Shown here piece after piece: positions 3,337 through 50,466 of a stretch of 64,000 bases of DNA. The notes below the pieces were generated by a model. That model made no database searches and had not been told where the DNA came from. It saw only the letters and a list, made by a program, of their open reading frames with translations. Where the stretch lies: the NCBI GenBank assembly GCA_002011615.1, contig MTOH01000002.1, forward strand, positions 207,526-271,525, in the 5' to 3' direction. Position 1 is the stretch's first letter. The number at the start of each line of letters is the position of its first letter. The stretch comes from Candidatus Hydrothermus pacificus (lineage in GTDB: Bacteria > Hydrothermota > Hydrothermia > Hydrothermales > Hydrothermaceae). The translations under genes were made by a program, and so were the position numbers.

Positions 3337-3948
3337 TTATTTTTTTCTCAACATAAAGCCGTCTTCTGTTACATAGAGATAAAAGGGTTTATTGTCCGGA
3401 TACTGGAATATACCCTGTCCAAAAACCGCATCCACAAAAAATATTTTCTGCCCGTGTTTCATAATAAGTTGCGTTAAGAAGTCTTCTTCTGCCAGTTGAT
3501 ACGAGGTGGGTGAAACATTTTCAACAGAGGAGTATCTTCCTTTTAATCTTGTAATTTTATAGGCTGTATGGATTCCAAGAAATTCAAGGTATGTTTTCCA
3601 TTTTACAACAACCCCCTGTATTTCCCAGTTCTCTCCTATTATTACATAAAAAAAATTTTTAGAAGGCTCTCTGCTGTATTCCAGCGTAACCATCATTGTA
3701 TCCTTTGTAATCTCCTTAGCGTATATTTTTGCAACAAGGTCCTCTCTTGTGAGAATCTGATATGTTTTAAGACTTTGAAAGAAGAATAAAAGCATAAATG
3801 CCAGCATCAGAGAAATCAGAGAACTTAAAGAAAGCAGTATCCCCTTTACTATTTTTAGTTTTCTGAATTCTAAAAAGGCATATATAAGAAGTAATAAAAA
3901 TAAAAGGAACAGAAAAACTGAAATAAAAAGCAAAGGGTATACATTCAC
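3337..3948 (-). CDS. Hypothetical membrane-anchored protein
   Basis: 203 aa; two strongly hydrophobic N-terminal segments then a soluble domain with no motif I recognise. Confidence 0.5.
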   Translation of the reverse strand: MNVYPLLFISVFLFLLFLLLLIYAFLEFRKLKIVKGILLSLSSLISLMLAFMLLFFFQSLKTYQILTREDLVAKIYAKEITKDTMMVTLEYSREPSKNFFYVIIGENWEIQGVVVKWKTYLEFLGIHTAYKITRLKGRYSSVENVSPTSYQLAEEDFLTQLIMKHGQKIFFVDAVFGQGIFQYPDNKPFYLYVTEDGFMLRKK

Positions 3949-4001: not shown

Positions 4002-5492
4002 TCATATCTTAATTCTTATGCCGATGTTATATGCTGCAGTTTTTAATGGATTTAATGAAAGCTTACCCTCTCCTCCTATTTCTTTTATAGATGATAAAAC
4101 TCCTGCTAATGGAGTAGTCCTTGCTCCAAGATATAAATCCAGAGGTCCTGCGCTTATATTTCCACCCATACCGACCGTAATTGTTGGTGGGGTGAATAAG
4201 AAAAAGTCTTCGTATTTTAAATATCTCCATGAGAATACGCTTCCTGTTCTTAAACCAACAGGTCCGAATCCAAATCCCATCATTGTTACAAAATAGGCTT
4301 TACCGAACGCGTATTTACCCGAGGGGATATCAATACCTCCCGAAAGGTTCAGGTTCATAAGCATGAGATTCAGGTTAACACCTGCTTTTAATCCTATGAT
4401 TCCGGGTAAGTTCAATGAACTTTTAAGTATTTCATGTTCTCTTTGAGAATAGACGAATTTAAGTGTATCTATGATTATATTTCCATCTATGGTTCTTAAA
4501 GATGTATCAACCGAAATTTGAGTTGTATCAAGCACATAATCTGAAACCCCTTCTATAAATCTATATGTTCCTGTTATTCCGCCACTTAATTTAAAGGGAA
4601 AAGAGTATTCAAGGGAAACTCCTGCTTTTAAAAGAGGTGTCTTTGCAAGAAAACCTGTTATAAACCCTATCTGTGTTCCTGAGAAGTTTCCCCTTATTAC
4701 ATCAGAAAATATCTCATTGTCAAAATTGCCGTTTGCATTAAGATTTATGCTCCAGTCTCTGCCCTGATTATCCTGTGCTGTTGTATCAAATTCAAGACTT
4801 AAATTATCGGTTCTGCCATTTATTGAGTATCTCAGATTTACATCACCACTGTATCTTTTTATGTTAAATCCAAATCCCAGTGCAACAGGCCCCAGACCTT
4901 TTGCAAGTCCAAAGAAAACAGGATAGGTTTTAGCATTTAATCCACCTGTCCCATCTACAGGGAAATCAATATTCCCGTTTAATTTAAAAGTTACAGGAAT
5001 GTATGTTCCTGCAGGAATATCAGGAATATCATCATGAGAAAGTGTATCTTTTACTTCAAAGGATATGTTCTGGTTTATTATTTCTGAAACCAGAAGGTCT
5101 GCCCCATATTCGTCGTCCCTTGAATAAGAAATTCCAGCATCAAAAACATATAGTTTTGCTTTTGCACCAATAAAATCAAAACCGCCTCTGTCTTCAAGGT
5201 TTAACTCAAAAGGAATTTTTATTTCAGGAATTTCTGTCCCTGCAATTGAGTCTATTCCAAAGGGTAAATCAAAATCTATTTTTGATCTGCCTGTTGTGCT
5301 ATAAAAACTCGCAAATTCGTATTTTGAACCAAAATGAAGTGCTGCAGGATTATAACTTGCTCCTATTATTCCATCTCCTTTTGAAACATCAAGAAACCCG
5401 GGATGGAGAAAGTAAAGAGCATTTAAAGGATTGGAATAATAAAAGGTGAAATTGGTCTGAGAAAAAAAATAAAGCATTAAAATTTTTACCAC
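4002..5492 (-). CDS. Putative outer-membrane beta-barrel protein
   Basis: 496 aa; N-terminal signal-like segment, Gly/aromatic-rich alternating beta-strand pattern throughout, no catalytic motif recognised. Confidence 0.5.
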   Translation of the reverse strand: MVKILMLYFFSQTNFTFYYSNPLNALYFLHPGFLDVSKGDGIIGASYNPAALHFGSKYEFASFYSTTGRSKIDFDLPFGIDSIAGTEIPEIKIPFELNLEDRGGFDFIGAKAKLYVFDAGISYSRDDEYGADLLVSEIINQNISFEVKDTLSHDDIPDIPAGTYIPVTFKLNGNIDFPVDGTGGLNAKTYPVFFGLAKGLGPVALGFGFNIKRYSGDVNLRYSINGRTDNLSLEFDTTAQDNQGRDWSINLNANGNFDNEIFSDVIRGNFSGTQIGFITGFLAKTPLLKAGVSLEYSFPFKLSGGITGTYRFIEGVSDYVLDTTQISVDTSLRTIDGNIIIDTLKFVYSQREHEILKSSLNLPGIIGLKAGVNLNLMLMNLNLSGGIDIPSGKYAFGKAYFVTMMGFGFGPVGLRTGSVFSWRYLKYEDFFLFTPPTITVGMGGNISAGPLDLYLGARTTPLAGVLSSIKEIGGEGKLSLNPLKTAAYNIGIRIKI

Positions 5493-6064: not shown

Positions 6065-6529
6065 TTAAAACTCAAAGGTCATTCCACCTGAAACTGTTCC
6101 TCCGTATACCCATGCACCCTTTCCTTCGCCCATATCAGGAACAACATATTTGATTTCAAACCCGGCAGAGGCTTTCTCAAGGTCAAGTTTGAAACCTGCA
6201 AATACCTGATAACCAAGTGAAGATTTATTTACTCCACCACCTGTTAAAAGGTAATATCCAAGACCACCTCCGAGATAAGGAGCAAATTTACTTGTATATT
6301 TTAAGGGATAAAATAAAGCCTCAAAAGGAATATCAAACTGATTGACACCTCCATCCAGCCCTACCCACTCAATTCCTGTTCTTGCACCGAAGTATTCAAG
6401 ATAGTCATAATTAACATATACACCAGCAGATGGATAATTTTTCCCATTTGAGTGGTATAGCGAACCTTTTATCTCTACCCTCATTTTACCGGGACCCAGT
6501 GTCAGTAAAAGTGTTAAAATTACACTCAT
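6065..6529 (-). CDS. Small outer-membrane beta-barrel protein
   Basis: 154 aa; signal peptide, Gly/Tyr-rich beta-strand pattern, C-terminal aromatic (..MTFEF). Confidence 0.5.
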   Translation of the reverse strand: MSVILTLLLTLGPGKMRVEIKGSLYHSNGKNYPSAGVYVNYDYLEYFGARTGIEWVGLDGGVNQFDIPFEALFYPLKYTSKFAPYLGGGLGYYLLTGGGVNKSSLGYQVFAGFKLDLEKASAGFEIKYVVPDMGEGKGAWVYGGTVSGGMTFEF

Positions 6530-9441: not shown

Positions 9442-11472
9442 TTATCTATTTTCAAGCATACCTAATTGCCACATCAGAAATATGTAGTGGTCAGTTATTG
9501 ATTTTACTGCTTTTTTTAAAGGTTTACCTGCTCCGTGTCCTGCTTTTGGTTCCACATAGAGCAGAACAGGGTTCTGTTCACCTGCAATTTTCTGCATTTT
9601 TGCAGCCATTTTCATAGCATGCATCGGATGAACCCTTCCATCAAACTCTGATGTTTTAAAAAATACCGCAGGATATTTTTTGTATTTATTAATATGATGA
9701 TAGGGTGAGTAAGCATATAAGTATTTAAAGTCATCCGGGTTATCAGGGTTACCGTATTCAGGAGTCCATATATGAGCAACACCGAATTTATGGTATCTGA
9801 GCATGTCAAGGAGTGGAACCGCACAGTAAACAGCCCTGAAAAGTTCGGGTCTCTGTGTCATAACAGCTCCTACAAGTAGTCCTCCATTACTTGCACCGCT
9901 TATTGCCAGCTTTTCCGGATTTGTATATCTTTTTTCTATTAAATACTCCGCCGCACTTATAAAGTCATCAAACACGTTTTGTTTTTTTTCTCTCATACCC
10001 TGTCTATGCCATTTTTCTCCGTATTCATCACCGCCCCTTATGCCCGCGGTTGCAAATACACCACCTCTTTTAAGGAAGGGAATAACACCCTCTATAAAGT
10101 AAGGGGAAATCCCGCCACCAAATCCTCCGTAGCCCGTGAGAATCGCAGGATTTTTACTGTTTAATTTTATATCTTTTCTGTAAAGTATGTACATTGGGAT
10201 TTTTGTTCCATCTTTTGAACTGTAAAAAACAAACTCCTGTTTGTATTTTTCAGGGTTAAAGCTCAGTTTCTGACTGAATAGCACAGAATCTTTTAATGTT
10301 TTTACATTGAACTTATATGTGGAATAAGGATAGAAAAAGGATGTAAATATATAAAAGAATTCAGGGTCATCGTATTCTTTACTCTGTATCCATATACTTC
10401 CCTTTACAGGAGTTTTAATCTCGTGTTCTATCTCTCCCTGTGTACTTGATATAAAAGCTCTGTAGTATGTGTCTTCCTTTATGGTGAATACCAGTTTACC
10501 ACCTGCAAAAGTAAAACTTTTCAAAACACCCTTTCCTTCTGGTATTACTATCTCTGCCTCTTTTAGAGAAGGTTTATCTATTCTTACTCGTATAATTTTA
10601 AAATTAGGAGCCTGATAATTGGTTCTTATATAGATATAATCTCTGTAAATTTCTGCCTGAAATATTGCATCAAATCCAACTGCAATTGGTATCCACTCTT
10701 CATCATCAATTTTTCTGAAATACAGGTCGTTTTTATCCCATCCTCTTGAAACATCCATAAAGATATACCTGTTGTCTCTGGAAGCATAGATACCCGGAAG
10801 CTCGGTTTCTTTTAGTTCCCTTCCATAAATGTAGGTATCGTTTTCCCATTTTTCACCTGTTTTATGGAGATAAACTCTCGGCAAAAATTTATCGCCCCCT
10901 TCATTTCTTGTGTAATAGAATCCGGAATTATCCGGTAACCAGACCACACTTGACCATTTTGTGTGTGGAATTGTATCAGAAAGAACTTTTTTAACTTTAA
11001 CATCAAGTATATAGAGAGTGCTGTTTTCGCTTCCTCCTTTTGATTTTCCAAAGGCAATAAAACTTCCATCAGGAGAAGGGAAAAACCAGTCCATTGCGAT
11101 TGTTCCATCTGTACTGAATTTATTGGGGTCTATGATGACTTCTGCCTTTCCAGGGTCAAATTTACCCTCACTCATATAAAGCACAGCGTGATTCTGTTCA
11201 GCTTTTCTTTTAAAGAAAAAATATTTCCCTTTATAAAAATGAGGTATACCCACCCATTCTTTTGAAAGTATTTCGGTGTATTCATCTTCAATATTCTTTC
11301 TCATGGGGAGACTGTCAAGAATACTTCTTGCAATCTTATTCTGCTTCTCCACCCATTCTTTAACTTCCTCGTTGTCAACATTTTCAAGCCACCGGTAGGG
11401 ATCTTCTATTATTCTGCCAAAAAGAGTGTCTTTCACAGGTTTTTCCTCTGTCTCGGGATAAATTATTTTCAT
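9442..11472 (-). CDS. Prolyl oligopeptidase (S9A family serine peptidase)
   Basis: N-terminal beta-propeller region and C-terminal hydrolase domain with GASNGGLL nucleophile motif. Start placed at the second ATG (11472), which has an AAAGGGG SD; the first ATG (11517) has none. Confidence 0.85.
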   Translation of the reverse strand: MKIIYPETEEKPVKDTLFGRIIEDPYRWLENVDNEEVKEWVEKQNKIARSILDSLPMRKNIEDEYTEILSKEWVGIPHFYKGKYFFFKRKAEQNHAVLYMSEGKFDPGKAEVIIDPNKFSTDGTIAMDWFFPSPDGSFIAFGKSKGGSENSTLYILDVKVKKVLSDTIPHTKWSSVVWLPDNSGFYYTRNEGGDKFLPRVYLHKTGEKWENDTYIYGRELKETELPGIYASRDNRYIFMDVSRGWDKNDLYFRKIDDEEWIPIAVGFDAIFQAEIYRDYIYIRTNYQAPNFKIIRVRIDKPSLKEAEIVIPEGKGVLKSFTFAGGKLVFTIKEDTYYRAFISSTQGEIEHEIKTPVKGSIWIQSKEYDDPEFFYIFTSFFYPYSTYKFNVKTLKDSVLFSQKLSFNPEKYKQEFVFYSSKDGTKIPMYILYRKDIKLNSKNPAILTGYGGFGGGISPYFIEGVIPFLKRGGVFATAGIRGGDEYGEKWHRQGMREKKQNVFDDFISAAEYLIEKRYTNPEKLAISGASNGGLLVGAVMTQRPELFRAVYCAVPLLDMLRYHKFGVAHIWTPEYGNPDNPDDFKYLYAYSPYHHINKYKKYPAVFFKTSEFDGRVHPMHAMKMAAKMQKIAGEQNPVLLYVEPKAGHGAGKPLKKAVKSITDHYIFLMWQLGMLENR

Positions 11473-11610
11473 TTCACTTAGCCCCTTTACAATTAAAAAT
11501 ACAATTAAAATTCTCATAATTTAAATTATAAGTATCTGATTTTTGAAAGTCAAATCGGATATATACAATAAAGTTGAACCCATAAAAACGTTTATAAAAT
11601 TTCAATTCAT

Positions 11611-13976: not shown

Positions 13977-14429
13977 ATGAACAAACTTATCAAAACTCTG
14001 ATAGTTATATTTATGGCAGGTTCATTAAGAACTCTACCTGCTCAGGACCCACTTTCTTTACCTTATCAGGCTTTTATAGGAGAAACAAGGCTTTCAAAGG
14101 AACTCGGACTCACCCAGGAACAGAGAGAAAAAATAAAAGACATTGTTTTTGATATGGAAAAACAGGCAGAGAATATAAGAAGTCAGGTCAGGATAAAGGA
14201 AATAGAACTTAGAGAACTTCTTCTGGAAGAAAACCCTGACCTTAAAAAGGTTGAAAATAAAATAAGAGAGATAGGCAATATCAGCATTGAATTGAGAATT
14301 TTAAAAATAAGAGAATTTTTTAAAGTTAAAGAAATCCTGACCGATGAACAGTGGGATAGATTAAAACAAATCCTTGAAAAAAGACCATTTATAAAAGAAA
14401 GACTCAAAAAGAGATTCCACAAAGATTAA
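13977..14429 (+). CDS. Periplasmic Spy/CpxP-like LTXXQ-motif protein
   Basis: 150 aa; signal peptide, two LTxxQ motifs (LTQEQREKI, LTDEQWDRL), helical K/E-rich composition. Stop overlaps the ECF sigma start (TAATG). Confidence 0.7.
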   Translation: MNKLIKTLIVIFMAGSLRTLPAQDPLSLPYQAFIGETRLSKELGLTQEQREKIKDIVFDMEKQAENIRSQVRIKEIELRELLLEENPDLKKVENKIREIGNISIELRILKIREFFKVKEILTDEQWDRLKQILEKRPFIKERLKKRFHKD

Positions 14430-14938
14430 TGGATGAGTCAAAGAGAAGGCAAAAACTGGAAGAGTTTATGAACCTTTATTCAAGAAAGATATTCAATCTC
14501 TTTTATTACTCACTCTTTGATAGGGAAGAGGCAAAGGATCTTGTTCAGGATGTGTTTTTTAAAGTCTACAAAGGTCTTCCTAAATTTAAAGAGGAGTCTT
14601 CCCCATATACATGGATTTATAAAATAGCAATAAATACTTTGAGGACCTATATGAGAAAGCAAAAGATTAGAAAAATTTTGTCCTTTGATAGGATACCCGA
14701 GGAAACTCATCCCGGATATGACCCACCCAAAAAAGTTCCTTCCCTTTTGTATGATGCATTAAAAAAAATCCCTTATGATTTTAAAGAAGTTATTCTTCTT
14801 TATTATTACGATGAATACGGGGTGAAGGAAATTTCTGAAATTCTGGGGATCCCTGAGGGAACAGTTAAATCAAGATTATCAAGAGGTAGAGGATTTATAA
14901 AAGCCTATCTTGAAAAAAGGGGGTTTTATGGAATGTGA
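14429..14938 (+). CDS. ECF-subfamily RNA polymerase sigma factor
   Basis: 169 aa; sigma-70 region 2 (DLVQDVFFKVYK) and region 4 HTH (EISEILGIPEGTVKSRLSRGR). Confidence 0.85.
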   Translation: MDESKRRQKLEEFMNLYSRKIFNLFYYSLFDREEAKDLVQDVFFKVYKGLPKFKEESSPYTWIYKIAINTLRTYMRKQKIRKILSFDRIPEETHPGYDPPKKVPSLLYDALKKIPYDFKEVILLYYYDEYGVKEISEILGIPEGTVKSRLSRGRGFIKAYLEKRGFYGM

Positions 14939-15542
14939 AAAATATAAGGATTCTTTATGGGATTATGCAGAGGGTAGAGCAGTTGACAGAAATATCTTAG
15001 AGCACATCCAGAAATGCGAAAAATGCAGAACAGAAATTGAAAAAATAAAAAAGACACTGGGAGTCCTTGACATTCTGAAAGACGATTTTCCAGAGCCAGT
15101 TCGGATGAAAGAAAATGTCTTTGCCAGAATAGAAAACAGAGAAAAGTTAAAGAAAAACATCAAGAAGGCTTCTTTTATTTTAAGTCCTGTATTTGTTACT
15201 GCTGTCCTGATTTTTGCTTTTATTTTTCTTTATAAAAGAGAAAGAATTCAGATTATTTATCCTGAACAGACCCAGATTTTGACCCCTGAGGAAGTTTATT
15301 TTGCCTTCAAGGTTCCTGAAAAAAGTATTTTTATAGCCATAATTGATACCCAGGACATAACCCCTGACCTTAAATTTGTTGAGAATATTGCCTTTTATGA
15401 TGCAAAAAACTTTGAAGCAGACCCGGGATTTCACAATCTGGTGATCAAACTGCTTAACAAAGATGGAGAGGTTGTAAAAGAGATTAAAAGAACCTTTTAC
15501 CTTACCGATTACAAAGTTGCAGAGCTGTCTTCAGGATGGTAA
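14928..15542 (+). CDS. Anti-sigma factor, zf-HC2 type with one transmembrane segment
   Basis: HX3CX2C motif (HIQKCEKC), single TM helix, extracytoplasmic C-terminal domain. Start set at the ATG with AAAAGGGGG SD (ORF-track TTG is at 14910). Confidence 0.7.
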   Translation: MECEKYKDSLWDYAEGRAVDRNILEHIQKCEKCRTEIEKIKKTLGVLDILKDDFPEPVRMKENVFARIENREKLKKNIKKASFILSPVFVTAVLIFAFIFLYKRERIQIIYPEQTQILTPEEVYFAFKVPEKSIFIAIIDTQDITPDLKFVENIAFYDAKNFEADPGFHNLVIKLLNKDGEVVKEIKRTFYLTDYKVAELSSGW

Positions 15543-15624: not shown

Positions 15625-17145
15625 TTATTTCAATATTAAAGTTTTTATTTTTTTATTCAAGGGTTTTATGATAAAGTAGATTCCCTTTTTATGCATTCTA
15701 TTCTTTAAATCAGAGTAATTTCCAATAGTTCTTCCTGTAACATCATAAACTTTCCACTTATACCAGCCATTGTTCCCTGTATCCTTGTTTTGGTTATTTT
15801 CTTCCACTGCGACCTGATACACCCAGGAAAGGTCAAGTCTTCCCCAGCCGTAATTATTGTTGGGATAAGGCTGTCCCTGTGGAGGATGGTAGGCGTAATC
15901 AGTCAAAATTTGATAAACTTGGTAAAAATCAAGGTTTGGGTTTTTCTGGTAGAGTATTGCAATTGCACCTGTTAGATGTGATGTTGACATGCTCGTCCCT
16001 GACCATGTTTGATAGCCACCACCTGGCACAGAGGACCTTATAGAAACGCCGGGTGCGGAAATATCAGGTTTTGTTAAATTCCAGTCCGGTCTTGTCCAGT
16101 ATTGGGGGTCATTCCAGGGAGGTTGATTTGGTGCAGGACCTCTTGAAGAAAAATTAGCAATGTTATCATTTGCGTCGGTTGCTCCAGCTCCCGTAACAAT
16201 GGGAAAATTGCCCGGTGTCGCTGTTGTTCCGGGGCTGGGTCCACTGCTACCTATGGAAAAAACAGGGATTATCCTGAGATTTTTCAAGTTCATACAGTCA
16301 TCCCAGAACTCGAGAGAGGTTGTATTGGAGCTTCCCCATGAATTATTCACAGCTTTTATGTCAACACCCTGTCCTTTCCATTCAGCAATTTTTTGGAATC
16401 CTGCGTGTAACCATGAGACCTGAGCAGAACCGCTTTGGTTAAATACTTTACAGACTGTAAACTGTGCATCCGGTGCAACTCCTATATCTTCTGTAAAAGG
16501 ACCCAGTCCATCACCACCGAGTATTATTCCCATAACATGTGTTCCGTGTCCATGGTCATCATAAGGAACTGGTTGACCATTTACTGCATCATACCAGTGT
16601 CCTTCAAATTTCCCCTGCAATGCTGGATGTGAAGTGTCAACTCCTGTATCCATTTCACCTATTATTATACCTTCTCCTGTATATCCATATATCCAGCAGG
16701 AATCTGCCTTTATCCGGGAAATGTTCCATTCAGGTGTTCTTATCTCAAAAGAAATTTCAGGCTTTTCTATTTTAACAACAAAATCTTCAATTATATAATT
16801 AATCTCTTCACTTTTTGCAAGATTTTCTATAACTTCTTTTGTTGCCTTTAAATAAAAGCCATTGAATATCCAGTAGGGTTTTATTTCTTTTATCTGGTTT
16901 ATAAAATTTTCATAAAGATAATTTAAAATATTCCTCTGGGAATTCTCAGAGAAATTCTTTAAAAATTCAACATAATCTTCTGCAGAAAGGTTTTTAATAA
17001 GTTCATAATCCGGCTTTTCCTTTAAATGAACTAAAACTGCAATTTTTTCATCTGGTTTTGTATTTTTTAAAATTTCCTTTAAAGAAGGCGCTATTTTTGA
17101 TACATTAAAAATAATACACACAACCACTATAACATACATGCACAC
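15625..17145 (-). CDS. Subtilisin-like serine protease (S8) with propeptide and T9SS-type C-terminal sorting domain
   Basis: 506 aa; catalytic Asp (GEMDTGVD), His (HGHGTHVMG), Ser (GTSMSTSHLTG); N-terminal hydrophobic segment and propeptide-like region; C-terminal VYDVTGR...KGIYFIIKP resembles Por-secretion tail domains. Confidence 0.85.
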   Translation of the reverse strand: MCMYVIVVVCIIFNVSKIAPSLKEILKNTKPDEKIAVLVHLKEKPDYELIKNLSAEDYVEFLKNFSENSQRNILNYLYENFINQIKEIKPYWIFNGFYLKATKEVIENLAKSEEINYIIEDFVVKIEKPEISFEIRTPEWNISRIKADSCWIYGYTGEGIIIGEMDTGVDTSHPALQGKFEGHWYDAVNGQPVPYDDHGHGTHVMGIILGGDGLGPFTEDIGVAPDAQFTVCKVFNQSGSAQVSWLHAGFQKIAEWKGQGVDIKAVNNSWGSSNTTSLEFWDDCMNLKNLRIIPVFSIGSSGPSPGTTATPGNFPIVTGAGATDANDNIANFSSRGPAPNQPPWNDPQYWTRPDWNLTKPDISAPGVSIRSSVPGGGYQTWSGTSMSTSHLTGAIAILYQKNPNLDFYQVYQILTDYAYHPPQGQPYPNNNYGWGRLDLSWVYQVAVEENNQNKDTGNNGWYKWKVYDVTGRTIGNYSDLKNRMHKKGIYFIIKPLNKKIKTLILK

Positions 17146-18497: not shown

Positions 18498-19241
18498 ATG
18501 AGCCCGAATAACGCAGATAGCATAATTGTTCTTTCAGGTCCTGAATTTGAAGATGTTGATTATAGTGAATTAATAAAGTTTATTAAGAATTATGGATTTT
18601 CAATTGAAAGAGAGGGGGATTTGCTTGCAAAGCTGGATGCAGATTTATTTGCAGAAAGAATGGCTAAGATAAGAATTCTGGAACCTGATAAAAAACATCT
18701 GAATGAAAACCCGTTTCCTGTTGAAGTTGATTATGAAAAACGTAATTTAAAATCAATACCACGAAAAAAAGGTATTATTTACTCTGGCAATCACTTTTTG
18801 AAAATTCTTCAAGAACAACTTGATGATATTTTTGACTTGAGAAAAAACTGGCCTGTGTATCTTTCAGACCAATTGCTGGCAACATTTGAAGCCAGGTGGC
18901 ATATAAGAGTGATGATTTTTGGATTTCCTGTTATTATTTCTGTGCCCGGGATTGTTTATGGACCTGCCAGGTCAAGGGAATATTATATTTCAGCGCAGAT
19001 GGGTATTCCAGAAGCAGATGAAGACTATATAAAAGAAAAGGATGAAAGAAAGACAGAGGTATTAAAGGGTTATCTCTTCCAGGCAATCTATTTCTACAAA
19101 TGTCTTCTTGAAGGGAAAGAATTTAGATTCTGTGAAGATAAAAATTGTTCTCTTTATAACTCGCACTGGCAGAGGGAGATTCTTGATGCACAGTTAAAGC
19201 ACAGTCTTTGCGAAAAACACTTAAAAGAAATTAAAATATAA
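18498..19241 (+). CDS. Conserved hypothetical protein with C-terminal CX4C...CXXH metal-site-like motif
   Basis: 247 aa; C-terminal FCEDKNCSLYNSHWQREILDAQLKHSLCEKH. Spacing resembles the archaemetzincin zinc site but there is no HEXXH. Sits between queG and thiE. Confidence 0.5.
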   Translation: MSPNNADSIIVLSGPEFEDVDYSELIKFIKNYGFSIEREGDLLAKLDADLFAERMAKIRILEPDKKHLNENPFPVEVDYEKRNLKSIPRKKGIIYSGNHFLKILQEQLDDIFDLRKNWPVYLSDQLLATFEARWHIRVMIFGFPVIISVPGIVYGPARSREYYISAQMGIPEADEDYIKEKDERKTEVLKGYLFQAIYFYKCLLEGKEFRFCEDKNCSLYNSHWQREILDAQLKHSLCEKHLKEIKI

Positions 19242-45663: not shown

Positions 45664-46515
45664 ATGGCGAGGGTTAGAGTAAAAGATGGATATCTTTTAT
45701 TTAGAGAGACACCTCTTATAATGGGGATTCTGAATATAACTCCTGATTCTTTTTATGACGGTGGTAGATATATCAACTTTGAAAAGGCTTTTGCAAGGGC
45801 TTTTGAAATTATTGAACAGGGCGCTGATTTAATAGACATAGGTGGTGAATCTACCAGACCAGGAGCAGAACCTGTCACACTGGAGGAAGAAGAGAGGAGA
45901 GTTATTCCTGTGATAAAAGAAATAAGGAAAAAAAGTGATATACCGATATCCATAGATACATATAAGTCAGAAATTGCTGAGAAAGCTTTGATAGCAGGTG
46001 CAAATATTGTGAATGATATTTCAGGAATGAAATTTGATGAGAAGATGCCTTTTGTAATTAAAAGATATGTTTCCGGTGTTATACTGATGCATATAAGAGG
46101 AACTCCCAGAGATATGCAGAAAAATCCTTATTATGAAAATACTGTGCAGGAAATAAAAAATGAGATTCAAGAAAGAGTGGAGTATGCAAAAAGCTTTGAC
46201 ATAGAAGATGAACAGATAATAATTGACCCTGGAATAGGTTTTGCTAAAAGGGTTTATGACAATCTTATAATACTTAGAGATCTGGAAGAATTTAAGAAAA
46301 TAGGGTATCCTTTATTAATAGGTCATTCCAGAAAATCATTTATCGGGAAAGTGCTGGGTATAGAAGACCCTGAATACAGGAAAGAGGGAACACTTGCGGT
46401 TTCATCCTATTTAATTTTGAAAAAAGCTGATATACTTAGAGTTCACGATGTAAAAGAAACATTTGAATTAAGGAAAATGCTGAAAGCGATTGAAGACCCT
46501 CAAATTTATACCTGA
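45664..46515 (+). CDS. folP: Dihydropteroate synthase
   Basis: 283 aa; pterin-binding motifs (GILNITPDSFYDGG, DIGGESTRPG, DPGIGFAK). Confidence 0.85.
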   Translation: MARVRVKDGYLLFRETPLIMGILNITPDSFYDGGRYINFEKAFARAFEIIEQGADLIDIGGESTRPGAEPVTLEEEERRVIPVIKEIRKKSDIPISIDTYKSEIAEKALIAGANIVNDISGMKFDEKMPFVIKRYVSGVILMHIRGTPRDMQKNPYYENTVQEIKNEIQERVEYAKSFDIEDEQIIIDPGIGFAKRVYDNLIILRDLEEFKKIGYPLLIGHSRKSFIGKVLGIEDPEYRKEGTLAVSSYLILKKADILRVHDVKETFELRKMLKAIEDPQIYT

Positions 46516-47864
46516 ATATATCCTTTTAATATCTTTTCTACATAATCTGTTGTATATGTGGCATTTTTGAACTCTTCTTTTTCAATCAAGAACTTGTAAA
46601 AATCTAAGGTTGTCTCAATCCCCTCTATAATAAATTCATCAATACATCTTTTCAACCTTCTAAGTGTTTCATCTCTTGTTCTTGCATGAACAATAAGTTT
46701 TGCAATTAATGAGTCATAAAAAGATGGAACAGTGTAACCATGATAGATATAGGAGTCTATTCTCACTCCGGGACCGGTTGGGAAATGAAGTTTTTCTATT
46801 CTTCCAGGTGAGGGTAGAAATCCTTTCTTAGGGTCTTCTGCATTTATTCGTAGTTCTATTGAATGGCCATTGATTTTTATCTCATCCTGGTCTATGTTCA
46901 GAGGCTCATTTTCTGCAATCTTGATTTGAAGTTTAATAAGGTCAAAGCCAGTTATGAATTCTGTTACAGGATGTTCCACCTGGATTCGTGTGTTCATTTC
47001 TATAAAATAAAAATTTTTATCTTCGTCCATAATAAACTCCATTGTTCCCACACTGTTATAATTTAAAGCCTTTATCCCTCTTACTGCCATTTCGGTAAGC
47101 TTTTTCCTCTGTTCATCATTTATTGAAGGACTTGGTGCTTCCTCAATCAGTTTTTGATGTCTTCTCTGAGTTGAACATTCTCTCTCAAAAAAGTGGAGGT
47201 ATAAATCTTTTCCGTTTCCTGCAACCTGAACTTCTATGTGTTTTGGTTTTTTAATAAATTTTTCTATATAGACCCTATCATCTTTAAAAGCTGAAAGAGC
47301 CTCTGCTTTTGCAGTCCTGAAATTTATTTCAAAATCTTTTTCATTCCTTGCAACTCTCATACCTCTGCCTCCACCTCCACCTGCTGCCTTTATAAGCACG
47401 GGAAAACCTATCTCTTTTGCAATATCCATCCCATCTTTAAAATCATTTATGGGCTCATCACATCCAGGCACAACACTCACACCTGCCTTTTTCATAAAAT
47501 TTTTGGCATATATTTTATCTCCCATTTTCTGAATTATATCTGGTGATGGCCCAATAAATTTAAAGTCCGAGGTTTCCACTATTTCAGCAAAGTCAGGATT
47601 TTCAGCGAACATACCATACCCGGGATGTATCGCATCACAACCTGTTATTTCAGCTGCCCCGATTATTCTTGATGGATTCAGATAACTCTCCATAAGTGCC
47701 GGAGGACCGATACAAACTGCCTGGTCTGCAAGATATACATGTAAAGAATCTTTATCCGCTTCTGAGTATACAGCGACTGTCTCAATCCCCAGTTCTTTGC
47801 AGGCATTTATAATTCTTACAGCTATTTCTCCCCTGTTTGCGATTAGAATTCTTTTAAATCTCAT
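46506..47864 (-). CDS. accC: Biotin carboxylase (acetyl-CoA carboxylase or pyruvate carboxylase biotin carboxylase subunit)
   Basis: 452 aa; ATP-grasp biotin carboxylase motifs (ILIANRGEIAVRI, GGGGRGMRV, EMNTRIQVEHPVTE). Confidence 0.85.
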   Translation of the reverse strand: MRFKRILIANRGEIAVRIINACKELGIETVAVYSEADKDSLHVYLADQAVCIGPPALMESYLNPSRIIGAAEITGCDAIHPGYGMFAENPDFAEIVETSDFKFIGPSPDIIQKMGDKIYAKNFMKKAGVSVVPGCDEPINDFKDGMDIAKEIGFPVLIKAAGGGGGRGMRVARNEKDFEINFRTAKAEALSAFKDDRVYIEKFIKKPKHIEVQVAGNGKDLYLHFFERECSTQRRHQKLIEEAPSPSINDEQRKKLTEMAVRGIKALNYNSVGTMEFIMDEDKNFYFIEMNTRIQVEHPVTEFITGFDLIKLQIKIAENEPLNIDQDEIKINGHSIELRINAEDPKKGFLPSPGRIEKLHFPTGPGVRIDSYIYHGYTVPSFYDSLIAKLIVHARTRDETLRRLKRCIDEFIIEGIETTLDFYKFLIEKEEFKNATYTTDYVEKILKGYIQV

Positions 47865-47865
47865 T

Positions 47866-50466
47866 CTATTTTATAACTGAAAACTTATAATAGGATGTGT
47901 TAAAGGACGTTTTCATGACTGCTATGTAAGTTCCGGGGTCCACAGGTTTGCCATTTTTATCTTTCAAATCCCACTTGTATTCATATCTTCCCACAGGTTG
48001 AAAATTAAAATTCTTCTCAAATACAATTTTACCTGCCACGTTGTAAATTTTTAAATCCACCGGGGTTTCTCCCTCTGTAACAACATAAACTATTTTTACA
48101 TAACCGTATTTTGTTGGATTTGGATAAAGGAGTATAATCCTGTCTTCAAGTGGCTCAGGTTCAATCACTGGAATTTCAGGAGTTTCAATAAAAAGTAATT
48201 TTTCAGCATCAGGATATCCCCAGCCTGATATGTTATCCACGCTATCCCCGAGCAGATTTGAGGTTTCTTTTAAATACTGCATCAATTCTCTTGCACTCCA
48301 TGAAGGGTGTGCTGACCAGGCAAGTGCACATATACCTGTGACAATTGCACTTGAATAGGATGTGCCTTCGCTGTGAGCATATCCTATTATTGTATCACCA
48401 TTTTGATCAATATAAGTCATTGCAGTTTTTGCACTCCAGGGAGCTACAACATCTGGTTTTTTTCTGCCATCAGCAGAAGGACCGTAACAGGATTTTGGAT
48501 GGACCTCTATAACACTGTCAATAGTTATTCCGCCTACACTTATGATTGAATCTGCATCTGAAGGTGCATGGAGGGTTGTGTCAGGAACACCTATCTGCTG
48601 ATGGAACTCATTATCACCCAGATTACCTATGGCATTAACTAAAAGCACATCTTTTTTTATTGCCTTTGAGGCGGCAACAGAAGATGGAGCTGTCTTACCA
48701 TCAAGGTCATTTTTGTTCCACCATAGAATATAGCCGAGAGAACTATTTATTATTTTTGCACCCTTTGATATTGCCCATTCTAATCCTTCAACCCAGAAAT
48801 CTTCTTCTATTATGTTTTCAAAATCTTCTCCTGATAGATTGGTTGTTCTTTCTGTCCTTGCCAGTATAAATTTTGAACCCGGTGAGACACCTGTAAGTTC
48901 TCCTGGAGATACACCAGCTATTACACTCAAAACTCTTGCTCCGTGAGTGAAACTGTTGAAATCATAATCCTCCTGTTCTTCAAAAGTGACTGTCGTATCC
49001 CCTCTTCTTCTCAGAAGAATTGTTGCGCTATCAACACCAATAAGGTCTGTATAAAAATAGTCCACTGTATCAGGTGCAGGTGAGTTAACAGAAGATGCAA
49101 ATAAACTCCCATATTTTGAGTAGATGATTTTTAGTTCGTTACCTTCGTAATAGAATGCAGGCGAATAAATAAAAATTCCTGTATCAATTAATTGGGTTTG
49201 AATCTGGGTTAAAGAAGAATCAAATATAGAGAACCATAGATTTTGATAATCAAAGTAACAGATTTTTATTGTGTCGTTTTTTATTACCAGGTCTGCTGAT
49301 GGACTTTCTGATATGCTTTTAAGAGAAATAAGATTGTAGATAGAATCTACTCTGAATATCAAAAGACTTTCACTTTCCCATGGATTTCCTTTGATTAAAA
49401 ACCCTGAAAATCCATTTGATGATTTTTTTATCTCATAGTCACTGAAATTCCCCTGAACAATCAGACTTTCATTCCATGTGTTTCCTGAATCCTGAGAAAA
49501 TAGAACTTTAAGACCATTTGTATCCAGAAAAAAAACACCTAACCTGTTAAATATATTCAATATGCTGGGTTTTATTATTTTTGCTGAATAATAAATTACC
49601 GTGTCTTTTACAATGTTGAAGCTATCTGGATTTTCAAGTAATGAAAAATTCAATTCAAATAGAACCCTTTTTGTTTTATAAACAAGAAATATATTGTTGC
49701 CTGTGATTTCAAAGGATGGTTTTATGGCAAAGCTGTCTCTTTTTATCAATTTTGGTGAGAGTGTAAACTCACCCAGTTCATTGACCTTACACACAAATAT
49801 TTTCCAGAAATTTCTGGGTGATATCCCCTGGACTGCATACAGAATTGAGTCATGACTGTAACTATAAAATACAATTGTTTCGTTACCCATGTTTTTTAAA
49901 TCAAAGCTATTCACATATCCAGCACCTGTCTGATTGTAGCTTATTTCTCTGAAATTAGTTGTCGGGAACTTAATAAAAAGATGGTCTCCTGAATTAAAAT
50001 CATGGGTTGCAACTATCCTTTTATATTCGGGGTTTATAAGATGTTTAAGGGCAGGGTGATTAAAATCAAATCCTGCATCAAGAATCCCTATTCTTACATT
50101 ATCACCAAGAACACCTCTTTTATGAACTTCAGGAATTTTAAGGATTTCAAGATAACTTTCATAGGTGAATTCTGAAACATCAAAAGGTGTCAAATTTTTT
50201 GTAAATTTCGTAAACCTTGCAATTTCTCTTGTTTTCTTGCTCACAGAGTTTATTCTCATCATATCTTTTTCAGGCACAAAGGCTGAAAAGGAACCGAGTA
50301 ATTTTGATATTGTTCTTGCCCTTCCTCCTCTTTCTTCTACCCATTTTAACACTGATGATGATGTTTTTATGTCCTGTGGAAATATCCAGTAAGGTTTTAA
50401 GCTTGCGTACAGAGTTGAAAACATCCCGATTATCACCAAAATTTTTGCACATCTGCTCATATACAA
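47866..50466 (-). CDS. Large subtilisin-like protease (S8) with about 370-aa insertion carrying a BNR/Asp-box-like motif and a T9SS-type C-terminal sorting domain
   Basis: 866 aa; signal peptide; Asp (GILDAGFD), His (FTHGARV) and Ser (GTSYSSAIVTG) are separated by a long insertion containing SQDSGNTW; C-terminal LYPNPT...KIYNVAGKIV...GTYIAVMKT matches Por-secretion tail pattern. Confidence 0.85.
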   Translation of the reverse strand: MYMSRCAKILVIIGMFSTLYASLKPYWIFPQDIKTSSSVLKWVEERGGRARTISKLLGSFSAFVPEKDMMRINSVSKKTREIARFTKFTKNLTPFDVSEFTYESYLEILKIPEVHKRGVLGDNVRIGILDAGFDFNHPALKHLINPEYKRIVATHDFNSGDHLFIKFPTTNFREISYNQTGAGYVNSFDLKNMGNETIVFYSYSHDSILYAVQGISPRNFWKIFVCKVNELGEFTLSPKLIKRDSFAIKPSFEITGNNIFLVYKTKRVLFELNFSLLENPDSFNIVKDTVIYYSAKIIKPSILNIFNRLGVFFLDTNGLKVLFSQDSGNTWNESLIVQGNFSDYEIKKSSNGFSGFLIKGNPWESESLLIFRVDSIYNLISLKSISESPSADLVIKNDTIKICYFDYQNLWFSIFDSSLTQIQTQLIDTGIFIYSPAFYYEGNELKIIYSKYGSLFASSVNSPAPDTVDYFYTDLIGVDSATILLRRRGDTTVTFEEQEDYDFNSFTHGARVLSVIAGVSPGELTGVSPGSKFILARTERTTNLSGEDFENIIEEDFWVEGLEWAISKGAKIINSSLGYILWWNKNDLDGKTAPSSVAASKAIKKDVLLVNAIGNLGDNEFHQQIGVPDTTLHAPSDADSIISVGGITIDSVIEVHPKSCYGPSADGRKKPDVVAPWSAKTAMTYIDQNGDTIIGYAHSEGTSYSSAIVTGICALAWSAHPSWSARELMQYLKETSNLLGDSVDNISGWGYPDAEKLLFIETPEIPVIEPEPLEDRIILLYPNPTKYGYVKIVYVVTEGETPVDLKIYNVAGKIVFEKNFNFQPVGRYEYKWDLKDKNGKPVDPGTYIAVMKTSFNTSYYKFSVIK

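What the first reader, a model, noticed from the sequence alone, without database searches (positions are those of the whole stretch)
47866..50466. Subtilase with a large BNR-motif insertion and a T9SS-type C-terminal sorting domain
The catalytic Asp (about residue 130) and His (about residue 507) are separated by roughly 370 residues, far more than in typical subtilisins, and the insertion contains an Asp-box/BNR-like SQDSGNTW motif. The last ~90 residues match the Por-secretion tail pattern (YPNP ... IYNVAGKIV ... GTYIAVMKT). The other S8 protease (15625-17145) has a shorter tail of the same kind (VYDVTGR...GIYFIIKP). Together they suggest surface-displayed proteases exported by a T9SS-like or related CTD-dependent route.
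Basis: partly seen in the sequence, partly recalled or inferred. Interest (0 to 1): 0.5.

Follow-up and report, generated by a model that had tools for sequence, protein, structure and literature searches.

The report
Secreted subtilase with inserted beta-propeller
This gene from an uncultured WOR-3 bacterium encodes an apparently active subtilisin-type protease that has a whole seven-bladed beta-propeller domain spliced into its catalytic domain and a C-terminal type IX secretion-style sorting tail; this domain arrangement matches no Pfam or NCBIfam model and turned up in no paper in my limited searches, but the protein is otherwise an ordinary secreted protease.

The parts
47866..50466 (-). 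Whole gene: pre-pro-subtilase with an inserted propeller and a C-terminal sorting domain. 866 aa from TTG at 50466; the database copy starts at the ATG at 50460. Stop codon 47866-47868.
50404..50466 (-). Putative Sec signal peptide, residues 1-21 (MYMSRCAK-ILVIIGMFSTLY-A).
   Evidence: Read from the sequence: charged n-region followed by a 12-residue hydrophobic core. Distant homologues also start with typical signal peptides. No predictor was run.
50167..50403 (-). N-terminal pro-region, residues about 22-100. Inferred to be an I9-like propeptide.
   Evidence: Conserved block W27, E44, G47, R49, R51, S54, S61, P65. Only 1 of 29 relatives gives a weak Inhibitor_I9 hit, so the assignment is an inference.
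49984..50166 (-). First part of the S8 catalytic domain, residues 101-161, including catalytic D130 (50077-50079).
49012..49983 (-). Inserted seven-bladed beta-propeller, residues 162-485. In the model, the S8 strand DFNSGD and the RRRGD segment contribute to the closing blade.
49474..49497 (-). Asp-box SQDSGNTW, residues 324-331, in the hairpin between strands C (318-324) and D (332-338) of one blade.
   Evidence: The only (sub-threshold) PDB sequence matches of the propeller profile are pneumococcal sialidase Asp-box blades.
48187..49011 (-). Second part of the S8 catalytic domain, residues 486-760. It holds the invariant RRRGD junction (486-490), H508 (48943-48945), N615 (48622-48624), S703 (48358-48360) and the subfamily motif FENIIEEDFWVEGLEW.
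47869..48129 (-). C-terminal beta-sandwich sorting domain, residues 780-866 (LYPNP...KIYNVAGKIV...GTYIAVMKT...KFSVIK).
   Evidence: TIGR04183 24.2 bits against cut-off 23. FlgD_ig 31.1 against 27; PF18962 20.0 against 27. 25 of 29 relatives hit TIGR04183 and 20 of 29 hit PF18962. pLDDT 77-88 in the full-length model. Translation checked.
46506..47864 (-). Biotin carboxylase (accC-like) gene starting 1 nt after the protease stop codon. It is a context feature and probably co-transcribed. It is not proposed to be functionally part of the protease.
   Evidence: The adjacency is conserved in L001, L002, L008, L010 and L011.

Best explanation
The gene encodes an active, exported subtilisin-family (S8) serine protease of a WOR-3 bacterium. 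The order of parts is: Sec signal peptide, N-terminal pro-region, S8 catalytic domain, short linker, and a C-terminal type-A CTD-like beta-sandwich. The catalytic domain is split by a complete seven-bladed beta-propeller of about 324 residues. The propeller is inserted in the surface loop between the strand that follows the catalytic Asp and the helix that carries the catalytic His, roughly residues 51-55 in subtilisin BPN' numbering.

Shown: the domain anatomy, the intact triad, the propeller fold, the exact insertion point, and the family-wide presence of the CTD.

Inferred: the protein crosses the inner membrane by Sec and the outer membrane by a T9SS-like, CTD-dependent route. A PorU-type sortase then removes the CTD or uses it for attachment. 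The protease acts outside the cell or on its surface to degrade proteins for a peptide-fermenting organism. Because the propeller emerges next to the loop that lines the S2/S1' side of the subtilisin cleft, it most likely acts as a substrate- or ligand-recognition module or as an access filter. That would make it a lectin-like anchor to glycans or polymers, or a gate of the kind seen in prolyl oligopeptidase. It is unlikely to be a second enzyme.
For: S8 domain and invariant D/H/S/N.

Insertion boundaries: nine relatives of 579-657 aa lack the insertion and define its edges.

Insertion point: the nearest solved S8 is Tk-SP (3AFG), E 2.8e-16. The alignment puts the insertion after its strand VIGWVDFVNG and before the ...DDNGHGTHV segment.

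Binding or structural module rather than enzyme: few invariant residues, mostly G, P, Y, W and D. Identity between clades is only 16-24% in the propeller against 44-49% in the catalytic parts.

CTD.

Export machinery: a 1252-aa Peptidase_C25 plus Por-tail protein lies 9 kb downstream of family member P0009. Its first 684 residues align colinearly with positions 4-482 of 1095 of the PorU sortase model NF033707 (173.5 bits, E 4.9e-51).

Commonness of the S8+CTD arrangement: serine endopeptidases are 12.2% of the GO-annotated TIGR04183 proteins (PMC11205867).

Peptide-catabolism context in the window: an S9 prolyl oligopeptidase, aminotransferases and a pyruvate:ferredoxin oxidoreductase operon.
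Against: The CTD call for this particular protein is marginal. TIGR04183 is 1.2 bits above its cut-off, Pfam PF18962 is below its gathering score, and the related FlgD_ig model scores higher.

No T9SS gene was found in the 64-kb window. The rest of this genome could not be reached. In my searches, no paper held both 'WOR-3' and a T9SS term.

The full-length AF2 model is poor (pLDDT 49.8). The position of the propeller relative to the active site is therefore inferred from the topology of the subtilisin fold and was not observed.

The signal peptide and the propeptide were read by eye only.

The tight, conserved coupling to a cytoplasmic housekeeping gene, accC, is not what one expects for a scavenging exoprotease operon.
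Confidence: 0.6

Rival explanations
1. The C-terminal domain is not a T9SS signal. It is a generic FlgD-Ig/FlgD-like beta-sandwich used for cell-surface or matrix attachment or for folding. The protease leaves the cell by another route, or stays in the periplasm, because WOR-3 bacteria may lack a complete T9SS.
For: Pfam FlgD_ig (31.1 bits, above its gathering score) beats Por_Secre_tail (20.0, below its gathering score) for this protein. No T9SS core gene lies in the window. My searches found no paper mentioning both WOR-3 and T9SS. Most reviews describe T9SS as confined to Bacteroidota or the FCB group (abstracts listed).
Against: TIGR04183 passes its cut-off here and hits 25 of 29 family members, best E 5.2e-08. 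The domain is strictly C-terminal and begins with the YPNP motif. A PorU-like sortase that carries its own Por tail exists in a WOR-3 genome that also encodes a family member.
Confidence: 0.2
2. The propeller is mainly an architectural or oligomerisation element. By analogy, the roughly 200-residue Asp-His insertion of tripeptidyl peptidase II participates in assembly of that complex. On this reading the propeller builds a multimeric or cell-surface lattice and does not recognise substrate.
For: The insertion occupies the same segment as in TPPII (my own knowledge of TPPII, not tested here). The propeller sequence evolves fast, and its few invariant residues are of the structural type. The invariant RRRGD junction and the acidic EEDFWVE motif could form interfaces.
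Against: The acidic motif is also present in the insertion-less relatives, so it is not specific to the propeller. There is no evidence of oligomerisation. The best structural neighbours are ligand-binding lectins and enzyme propellers.
Confidence: 0.13
3. The propeller is itself an enzyme of the sialidase, glycosidase or polysaccharide-lyase type, which would make the protein a bifunctional glycan- and protein-degrading enzyme.
Against: The fold has seven blades, not the six of sialidases. There is no Pfam BNR, BNR_2 or glycoside-hydrolase hit at threshold; the best E-values are 0.06-0.07, in 1 of 29 members. No invariant Arg, Glu or Tyr cluster was found. A YRIP-like string appears in one clade but its column is not conserved. 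One whole clade has lost the Asp-box.
Confidence: 0.05
4. The protein is a degenerate or inactive pseudo-protease, or the ORF is an annotation artefact.
For: The catalytic domain is interrupted by a large insertion. The ORF finder picks a TTG start.
Against: The triad and the oxyanion Asn are invariant across 29 sequences down to about 30% identity. Twenty full-length homologues were aligned, and further near-identical copies are in the clusters listed, from independent metagenomes. An ATG lies two codons downstream of the TTG.
Confidence: 0.02

Closest known systems
T9SS type-A CTD cargo subtilases of Bacteroidota (S8 + TIGR04183/PF18962)
   Same: Signal peptide, S8 catalytic domain and a terminal beta-sandwich sorting domain of about 80-90 aa that begins with YPNP. 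Serine endopeptidases are a major class of TIGR04183 proteins (PMC11205867).
   Different: The host phylum is WOR-3/Hydrothermae. The CTD score is marginal. The catalytic domain is interrupted by a propeller. T9SS machinery has not been shown in this genome.
Tripeptidyl peptidase II (S8, eukaryotic)
   Same: A large insertion in the segment between the catalytic Asp and His of a subtilase (my own knowledge, not tested here).
   Different: As far as I know, the TPPII insertion is about 200 aa and is not a beta-propeller. TPPII is a cytosolic giant complex with no signal peptide and no CTD.
PA-domain subtilases (pyrolysin group, C5a peptidase, plant SBT3, lactocepin)
   Same: A whole domain is inserted within the S8 catalytic domain and influences substrate access or dimerisation.
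   Different: The PA domain sits between His and Ser rather than between Asp and His, and it has a different fold (my own knowledge).
Prolyl oligopeptidase family (S9) and tricorn-type proteases
   Different: The catalytic fold is different (alpha/beta hydrolase). The S9 propeller is a separate lobe and is not spliced into the catalytic core. There is no sequence similarity.
Asp-box (BNR) propellers and Photorhabdus PLL/PHL seven-bladed lectins
   Different: Identity is only 5-16%. The protein has a single Asp-box. No BNR Pfam hit reaches threshold. Sialidases have six blades. No lectin binding-site motif was tested.
Tk-SP (Thermococcus kodakarensis subtilisin-like protease, PDB 3AFG)
   Same: It is the closest solved catalytic domain by sequence (E 2.8e-16) and is colinear across D, H and S once the insertion is removed.
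   Different: Tk-SP has no insertion. Its C-terminal beta-jelly-roll domain is unrelated to a T9SS CTD (my own knowledge).

Membership tests
Peptidase family S8 (subtilases) | Significant match to the S8 profile | tested here: met
   PF00082 at E 1.5e-34, 120 bits against a gathering score of 21.8. The N-terminal Asp segment is matched separately.
Peptidase family S8 (subtilases) | Catalytic triad in the order Asp-His-Ser, plus the oxyanion Asn | tested here: met
   D130, H508, S703 and N615 are invariant in 29 sequences.
T9SS type-A CTD cargo | TIGR04183 match at or above the curated cut-off, located at the extreme C-terminus | tested here: met
   24.2 bits against 23, residues 780-862 of 866. 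25 of 29 relatives hit the model. The margin is small.
T9SS type-A CTD cargo | Pfam PF18962 Por_Secre_tail at its gathering score | tested here: not met
   20.0 bits against 27 for this protein. 20 of 29 relatives match at E<=0.1, best 1.1e-08.
T9SS type-A CTD cargo | N-terminal Sec signal peptide | tested here: inconclusive
   A charged n-region followed by a 12-residue hydrophobic core was seen by inspection. No signal-peptide predictor was available.
T9SS type-A CTD cargo | T9SS machinery (SprA/Sov, PorV, PorU, PorK/L/M/N) encoded in the same genome | not testable with these tools
   None was found in the 64-kb window. The rest of the 410-kb contig and its genome was unreachable. A PorU-like gene is present in another WOR-3 genome.
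T9SS type-A CTD cargo | CTD-dependent secretion and CTD cleavage | not testable with these tools
   This needs an experiment.
BNR/Asp-box sialidase-like propellers (PF02012, PF13088) | Asp-box S-x-D-x-G-x-T-W in a blade hairpin | tested here: met
   There is one copy, residues 324-331, between strands C and D. The column is conserved in three clades, and some members have a second box two blades later.
BNR/Asp-box sialidase-like propellers (PF02012, PF13088) | Profile match at threshold | tested here: not met
   This protein has no hit. Across the family the best E-values are 0.064 (BNR) and 0.074 (BNR_2), each in 1 of 29 members. PDB sialidases match only at E 0.1-0.7.
BNR/Asp-box sialidase-like propellers (PF02012, PF13088) | Six-bladed fold with a conserved catalytic Arg triad, Tyr and Glu | tested here: not met
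   The model has seven blades (28 strands). No invariant Arg, Glu or Tyr cluster is present in the insertion.
PA-domain-containing subtilases | PA-domain fold inserted between His and Ser | tested here: not met
   The insertion lies between Asp and His and is a beta-propeller. No PA Pfam hit was found.

The most novel reading that the evidence does not exclude
A lineage-specific invention in WOR-3/Hydrothermae: a subtilase whose active-site access or targeting is controlled by a seven-bladed propeller spliced into the catalytic core. This would be a solution to substrate filtering or targeting that is convergent with prolyl oligopeptidases. The protease would be exported by a T9SS-like CTD and PorU system in a phylum for which my searches found no T9SS report.
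Probability: 0.25. Interest if true: 0.6.

Novelty: new variant of a known kind. Interest (0 to 1): 0.42.

Why it matters
Subtilases are among the best-studied and most heavily engineered proteases. Known domain insertions in the catalytic core are few; the PA domain and the TPPII insert are the main examples. A complete beta-propeller tolerated in the loop just before the catalytic His shows a further permissive site in the fold. It also offers a natural example of built-in substrate recognition or gating.

The CTD, together with a PorU-like sortase in WOR-3 genomes, also bears on how far T9SS-type secretion extends beyond Bacteroidota into uncultured FCB-related phyla. It also bears on how these organisms obtain peptides.

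The impact is moderate. The S8+CTD arrangement is common, and the function of the propeller is untested.

Tried and rejected
1. PA-domain reading of the insertion: rejected on fold and position.

2. Membership of the sialidase/BNR family: rejected (seven blades, no catalytic constellation).

3. Second S8 protease as CTD cargo: no support.

4. Full-length AF2 with 12 sequences: too poor to give the domain arrangement (pLDDT 49.8).

5. Widening the family with a profile query in the word-indexed search: nothing new.

6. Foldseek against afdb50: library unavailable.

7. Reaching the window's own contig through exact-protein look-ups, to search it for T9SS genes: not on record.

8. Extending the PorU-like gene with a metagenome DNA scan: only 684 of 1252 residues recovered.

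9. Scanning the GTDB representative genomes with the PorU-like fragment: returned only a distant Bacteroidales locus.

10. NCBIfam scan of the genes around the PorU-like gene for PorV, PorQ or PorW: none found.

11. Test of an I9 propeptide by hhalign against the second protease's I9 region: only a short KPYWIF match, uninformative.

12. Literature searches for WOR-3 plus T9SS, and for subtilase plus beta-propeller insertion: nothing relevant.
Full report
**Observation**

The ORF at 47866-50466 on the minus strand is 866 aa long. The public database holds an identical 864-aa copy that starts at an ATG two codons downstream. That copy is on record on a 410-kb contig.

Pfam finds Peptidase_S8 only over residues 498-750, profile positions 46-288. 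The missing N-terminal part of the profile, which carries the catalytic Asp, lies at about residues 98-162.

D130, H508, S703 and the oxyanion residue N615 are invariant in alignments of 12, 14 and 29 relatives. The Asp-to-His distance is 378 residues. In the other S8 gene of the window (15625-17145) it is 34.

SQDSGNTW lies at residues 324-331, window 49474-49497. It is the only strict Asp-box pattern in the 38,982 aa of six-frame ORFs of at least 60 aa in the window.

**The family and the exact insertion**

Homology searches found 12 full-length homologues at 35-100% identity. Those with names are annotated as S8 peptidases of candidate division WOR-3. A more distant clade of 876-893 aa proteins comes from WOR-3 and Candidatus Hydrothermae.

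Nine shorter relatives of 579-657 aa share the catalytic domain, its unusual acidic motif (FENxxEEDFWVEALEW) and the C-terminal domain. One of them is from Neomarinimicrobiota. In these proteins ...DF(V/I)x runs straight into (D/N)Dxxx...HGT. This delimits an insertion of 305-332 residues between DFNSGD (residue 161) and RRRGD (486-490).

Alignment to the nearest solved subtilase, Tk-SP (3AFG, E 2.8e-16), puts the insertion in the turn after the strand that follows the catalytic Asp. That corresponds to about residues 51-55 of subtilisin BPN' (the BPN' numbering is from my own knowledge).

A profile of the insertion alone was searched against 1.84 billion representative proteins. It found seven proteins. 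Six have this same architecture, and one is a weak hit to a 228-aa repeat protein. The domain therefore has no detectable sequence relatives outside this protease family.

**What the insertion is**

With a 19-sequence alignment, AlphaFold2 models residues 150-500 at mean pLDDT 88.9 and pTM 0.88. The model is all-beta with 28 strands, which is seven blades of four strands.

- Foldseek against the PDB gives the seven-bladed Photorhabdus lectins PLL and PHL as best matches (E about 2e-8, TM 0.62-0.67, 11-13% identity). The LGI1 EPTP domain and prolyl endopeptidase propellers follow.

The insertion is therefore a generic seven-bladed beta-propeller and not a PA domain.

Mapping the strands onto the sequence puts SQDSGNTW in the hairpin between strands C (318-324) and D (332-338) of one blade. 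From my own knowledge, this is where Asp-boxes sit in sialidases.

The same alignment column has an Asp-box in three clades. The Hydrothermae clade has a second one 91 residues, or two blades, later. The P0007-P0012 clade has lost the motif through a small deletion.

No Pfam BNR or propeller model reaches threshold. The only PDB sequence matches are pneumococcal sialidase Asp-box blades at a non-significant E of 0.1-0.7.

In the model, the closing blade appears to combine the two C-terminal strands (473-479 and 482-490, including RRRGD) with the two N-terminal strands (156-166, including DFNSGD, and 173-175). This would explain how a propeller fits into a loop.

**C-terminal domain**

- Residues 780-866 score 24.2 bits on TIGR04183, the T9SS type-A sorting domain, against a cut-off of 23.
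- They score 31.1 on Pfam FlgD_ig (gathering score 27), 20.0 on PF18962 (gathering score 27) and 15.4 on CHU_C.
- Across the family, 25 of 29 proteins hit TIGR04183, best E 5.2e-08. Twenty of 29 hit PF18962.
- The domain is well predicted as a beta-sandwich even in the poor full-length model (pLDDT 77-88).

At the family level the type-A CTD assignment is solid. For this single protein it is marginal.

The second S8 protease has an I9 propeptide and an S8 domain but no Por-tail hit. It scores 1.4 bits against a family-specific CTD HMM, and hhalign gives a probability of 2.3%.

**Secretion machinery**

All ORFs of at least 150 aa in the window, other than evidently spurious overlapping ones, were scanned with Pfam. 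Four without Pfam hits were also scanned with NCBIfam. No T9SS component was found.

The window's own contig could not be reached beyond the window.

In another WOR-3 contig, a 1252-aa gene with Peptidase_C25 and Por_Secre_tail hits lies about 9 kb downstream of family member P0009. I recovered 684 residues of a near-identical copy. They align colinearly to positions 4-482 of 1095 of the PorU sortase model NF033707, with 173.5 bits and E 4.9e-51. The full-length cut-off of 420 bits cannot be tested on a fragment.

This supports CTD processing in the phylum. It does not demonstrate a complete T9SS. No other T9SS gene was seen near the PorU-like gene. My searches found no paper mentioning both WOR-3 and T9SS.

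**Context**

The gene sits between a divergently transcribed pyruvate:ferredoxin oxidoreductase operon and a biotin carboxylase gene. The biotin carboxylase gene starts 1 nt after the protease stop codon.

The adjacency of protease and accC, with a 4-nt overlap or a gap of 1-3 nt, is kept in every WOR-3 locus examined, although the upstream neighbours differ (L001, L002, L008, L010, L011). It is absent in the Hydrothermae clade, where a cupin gene precedes the protease. No functional partner is conserved across the whole family.

**Mechanism**

Shown: the gene encodes an intact S8 enzyme with a propeller in the pre-His loop and a type-A-like CTD.

Inferred: export by Sec, followed by CTD-dependent passage through the outer membrane and processing by a PorU-type sortase, and then extracellular or surface proteolysis that feeds peptide fermentation.

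The role of the propeller is inferred from three observations.
- Its position: the loop leads into the His helix that lines the S2/S1' side (my own knowledge of the subtilisin fold).
- Its structural neighbours, which are lectins and prolyl oligopeptidase gating propellers.
- Its evolutionary behaviour. Identity between clades is 16-24% in the propeller against 44-49% in the catalytic parts, and the few invariant residues are mostly structural.

I favour a role in substrate or ligand recognition, or in filtering access to the active site. The rivals are an oligomerisation scaffold, a second enzymatic activity, and a CTD that is not a T9SS signal.

**Comparison and novelty**

An S8 domain with a T9SS CTD is a common arrangement (PMC11205867). 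A large Asp-His insertion has a precedent in TPPII, and domain insertion in S8 has a precedent in the PA domain (both from my own knowledge). I found no described subtilase with a beta-propeller spliced into the catalytic domain. No Pfam or NCBIfam model covers the insertion.

I rate it a new variant of a known kind, restricted to WOR-3/Hydrothermae, and of moderate interest.

Noticed in passing
window 46506-47868 (junction of the protease stop codon and the accC start); L001 12514, L008 12571, L010 12542, L011 12583: A biotin carboxylase (accC-like) gene follows the secreted protease gene immediately, with a 4-nt overlap or a gap of 1-3 nt, in every WOR-3 locus examined. This holds across about 36% protein identity and with different upstream neighbours. 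There is no accB next to it. Why a housekeeping carboxylase subunit is coupled to an exported protease is unexplained.
   Followed up: partly
L001 21515-22517 and L006 12004-14059: A PorU-like gene is present in WOR-3 metagenome contigs (Peptidase_C25 plus Por tail, 1252 aa; NF033707 173.5 bits on the first 684 aa). It suggests that CTD-sortase machinery exists outside Bacteroidota in this phylum.
   Followed up: partly
window 15625-17145 (-), with 14429-14938 (+) and 14910-15542 (+): A second S8 protease of 506 aa has an I9 propeptide and a short C-terminal extension of about 65 aa of unknown kind. It lies convergent to an ECF sigma factor and anti-sigma factor pair. Both proteases share the string KPYWIF in their N-terminal regions.
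   Followed up: partly
window 49003-49017 (residues 486-490, RRRGD): An RRRGD motif lies exactly at the C-terminal junction between the propeller and the catalytic domain; R486, R488 and G489 are invariant in all 20 propeller-bearing members and R487 and D490 are nearly so. It is absent from the insertion-less relatives. It could be a structural clasp or a processing site. This was not tested.
   Followed up: no
window 9442-11517 (-): A prolyl oligopeptidase (S9) with its own seven-bladed propeller is encoded in the same window. This fits a peptide-degrading lifestyle.
   Followed up: no
window 4002-5492 (-), 3337-3948 (-), 6065-6529 (-): Three consecutive ORFs of 496, 203 and 154 aa have no Pfam or NCBIfam match at the thresholds used.
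   Followed up: no
window 18498-19241 (+): A DUF6775/DUF7001 protein, annotated in Pfam as a probable metallopeptidase family, lies downstream of queG.
   Followed up: no
L001 5892-12517 and L010 5904-12538: In the second WOR-3 clade the protease gene overlaps an upstream TPR gene by 4 nt. It follows a run of a STAS gene, a SpoIIE-type phosphatase gene and an unknown gene. This suggests a different, partner-switching-type regulatory context from the one in the window.
   Followed up: no
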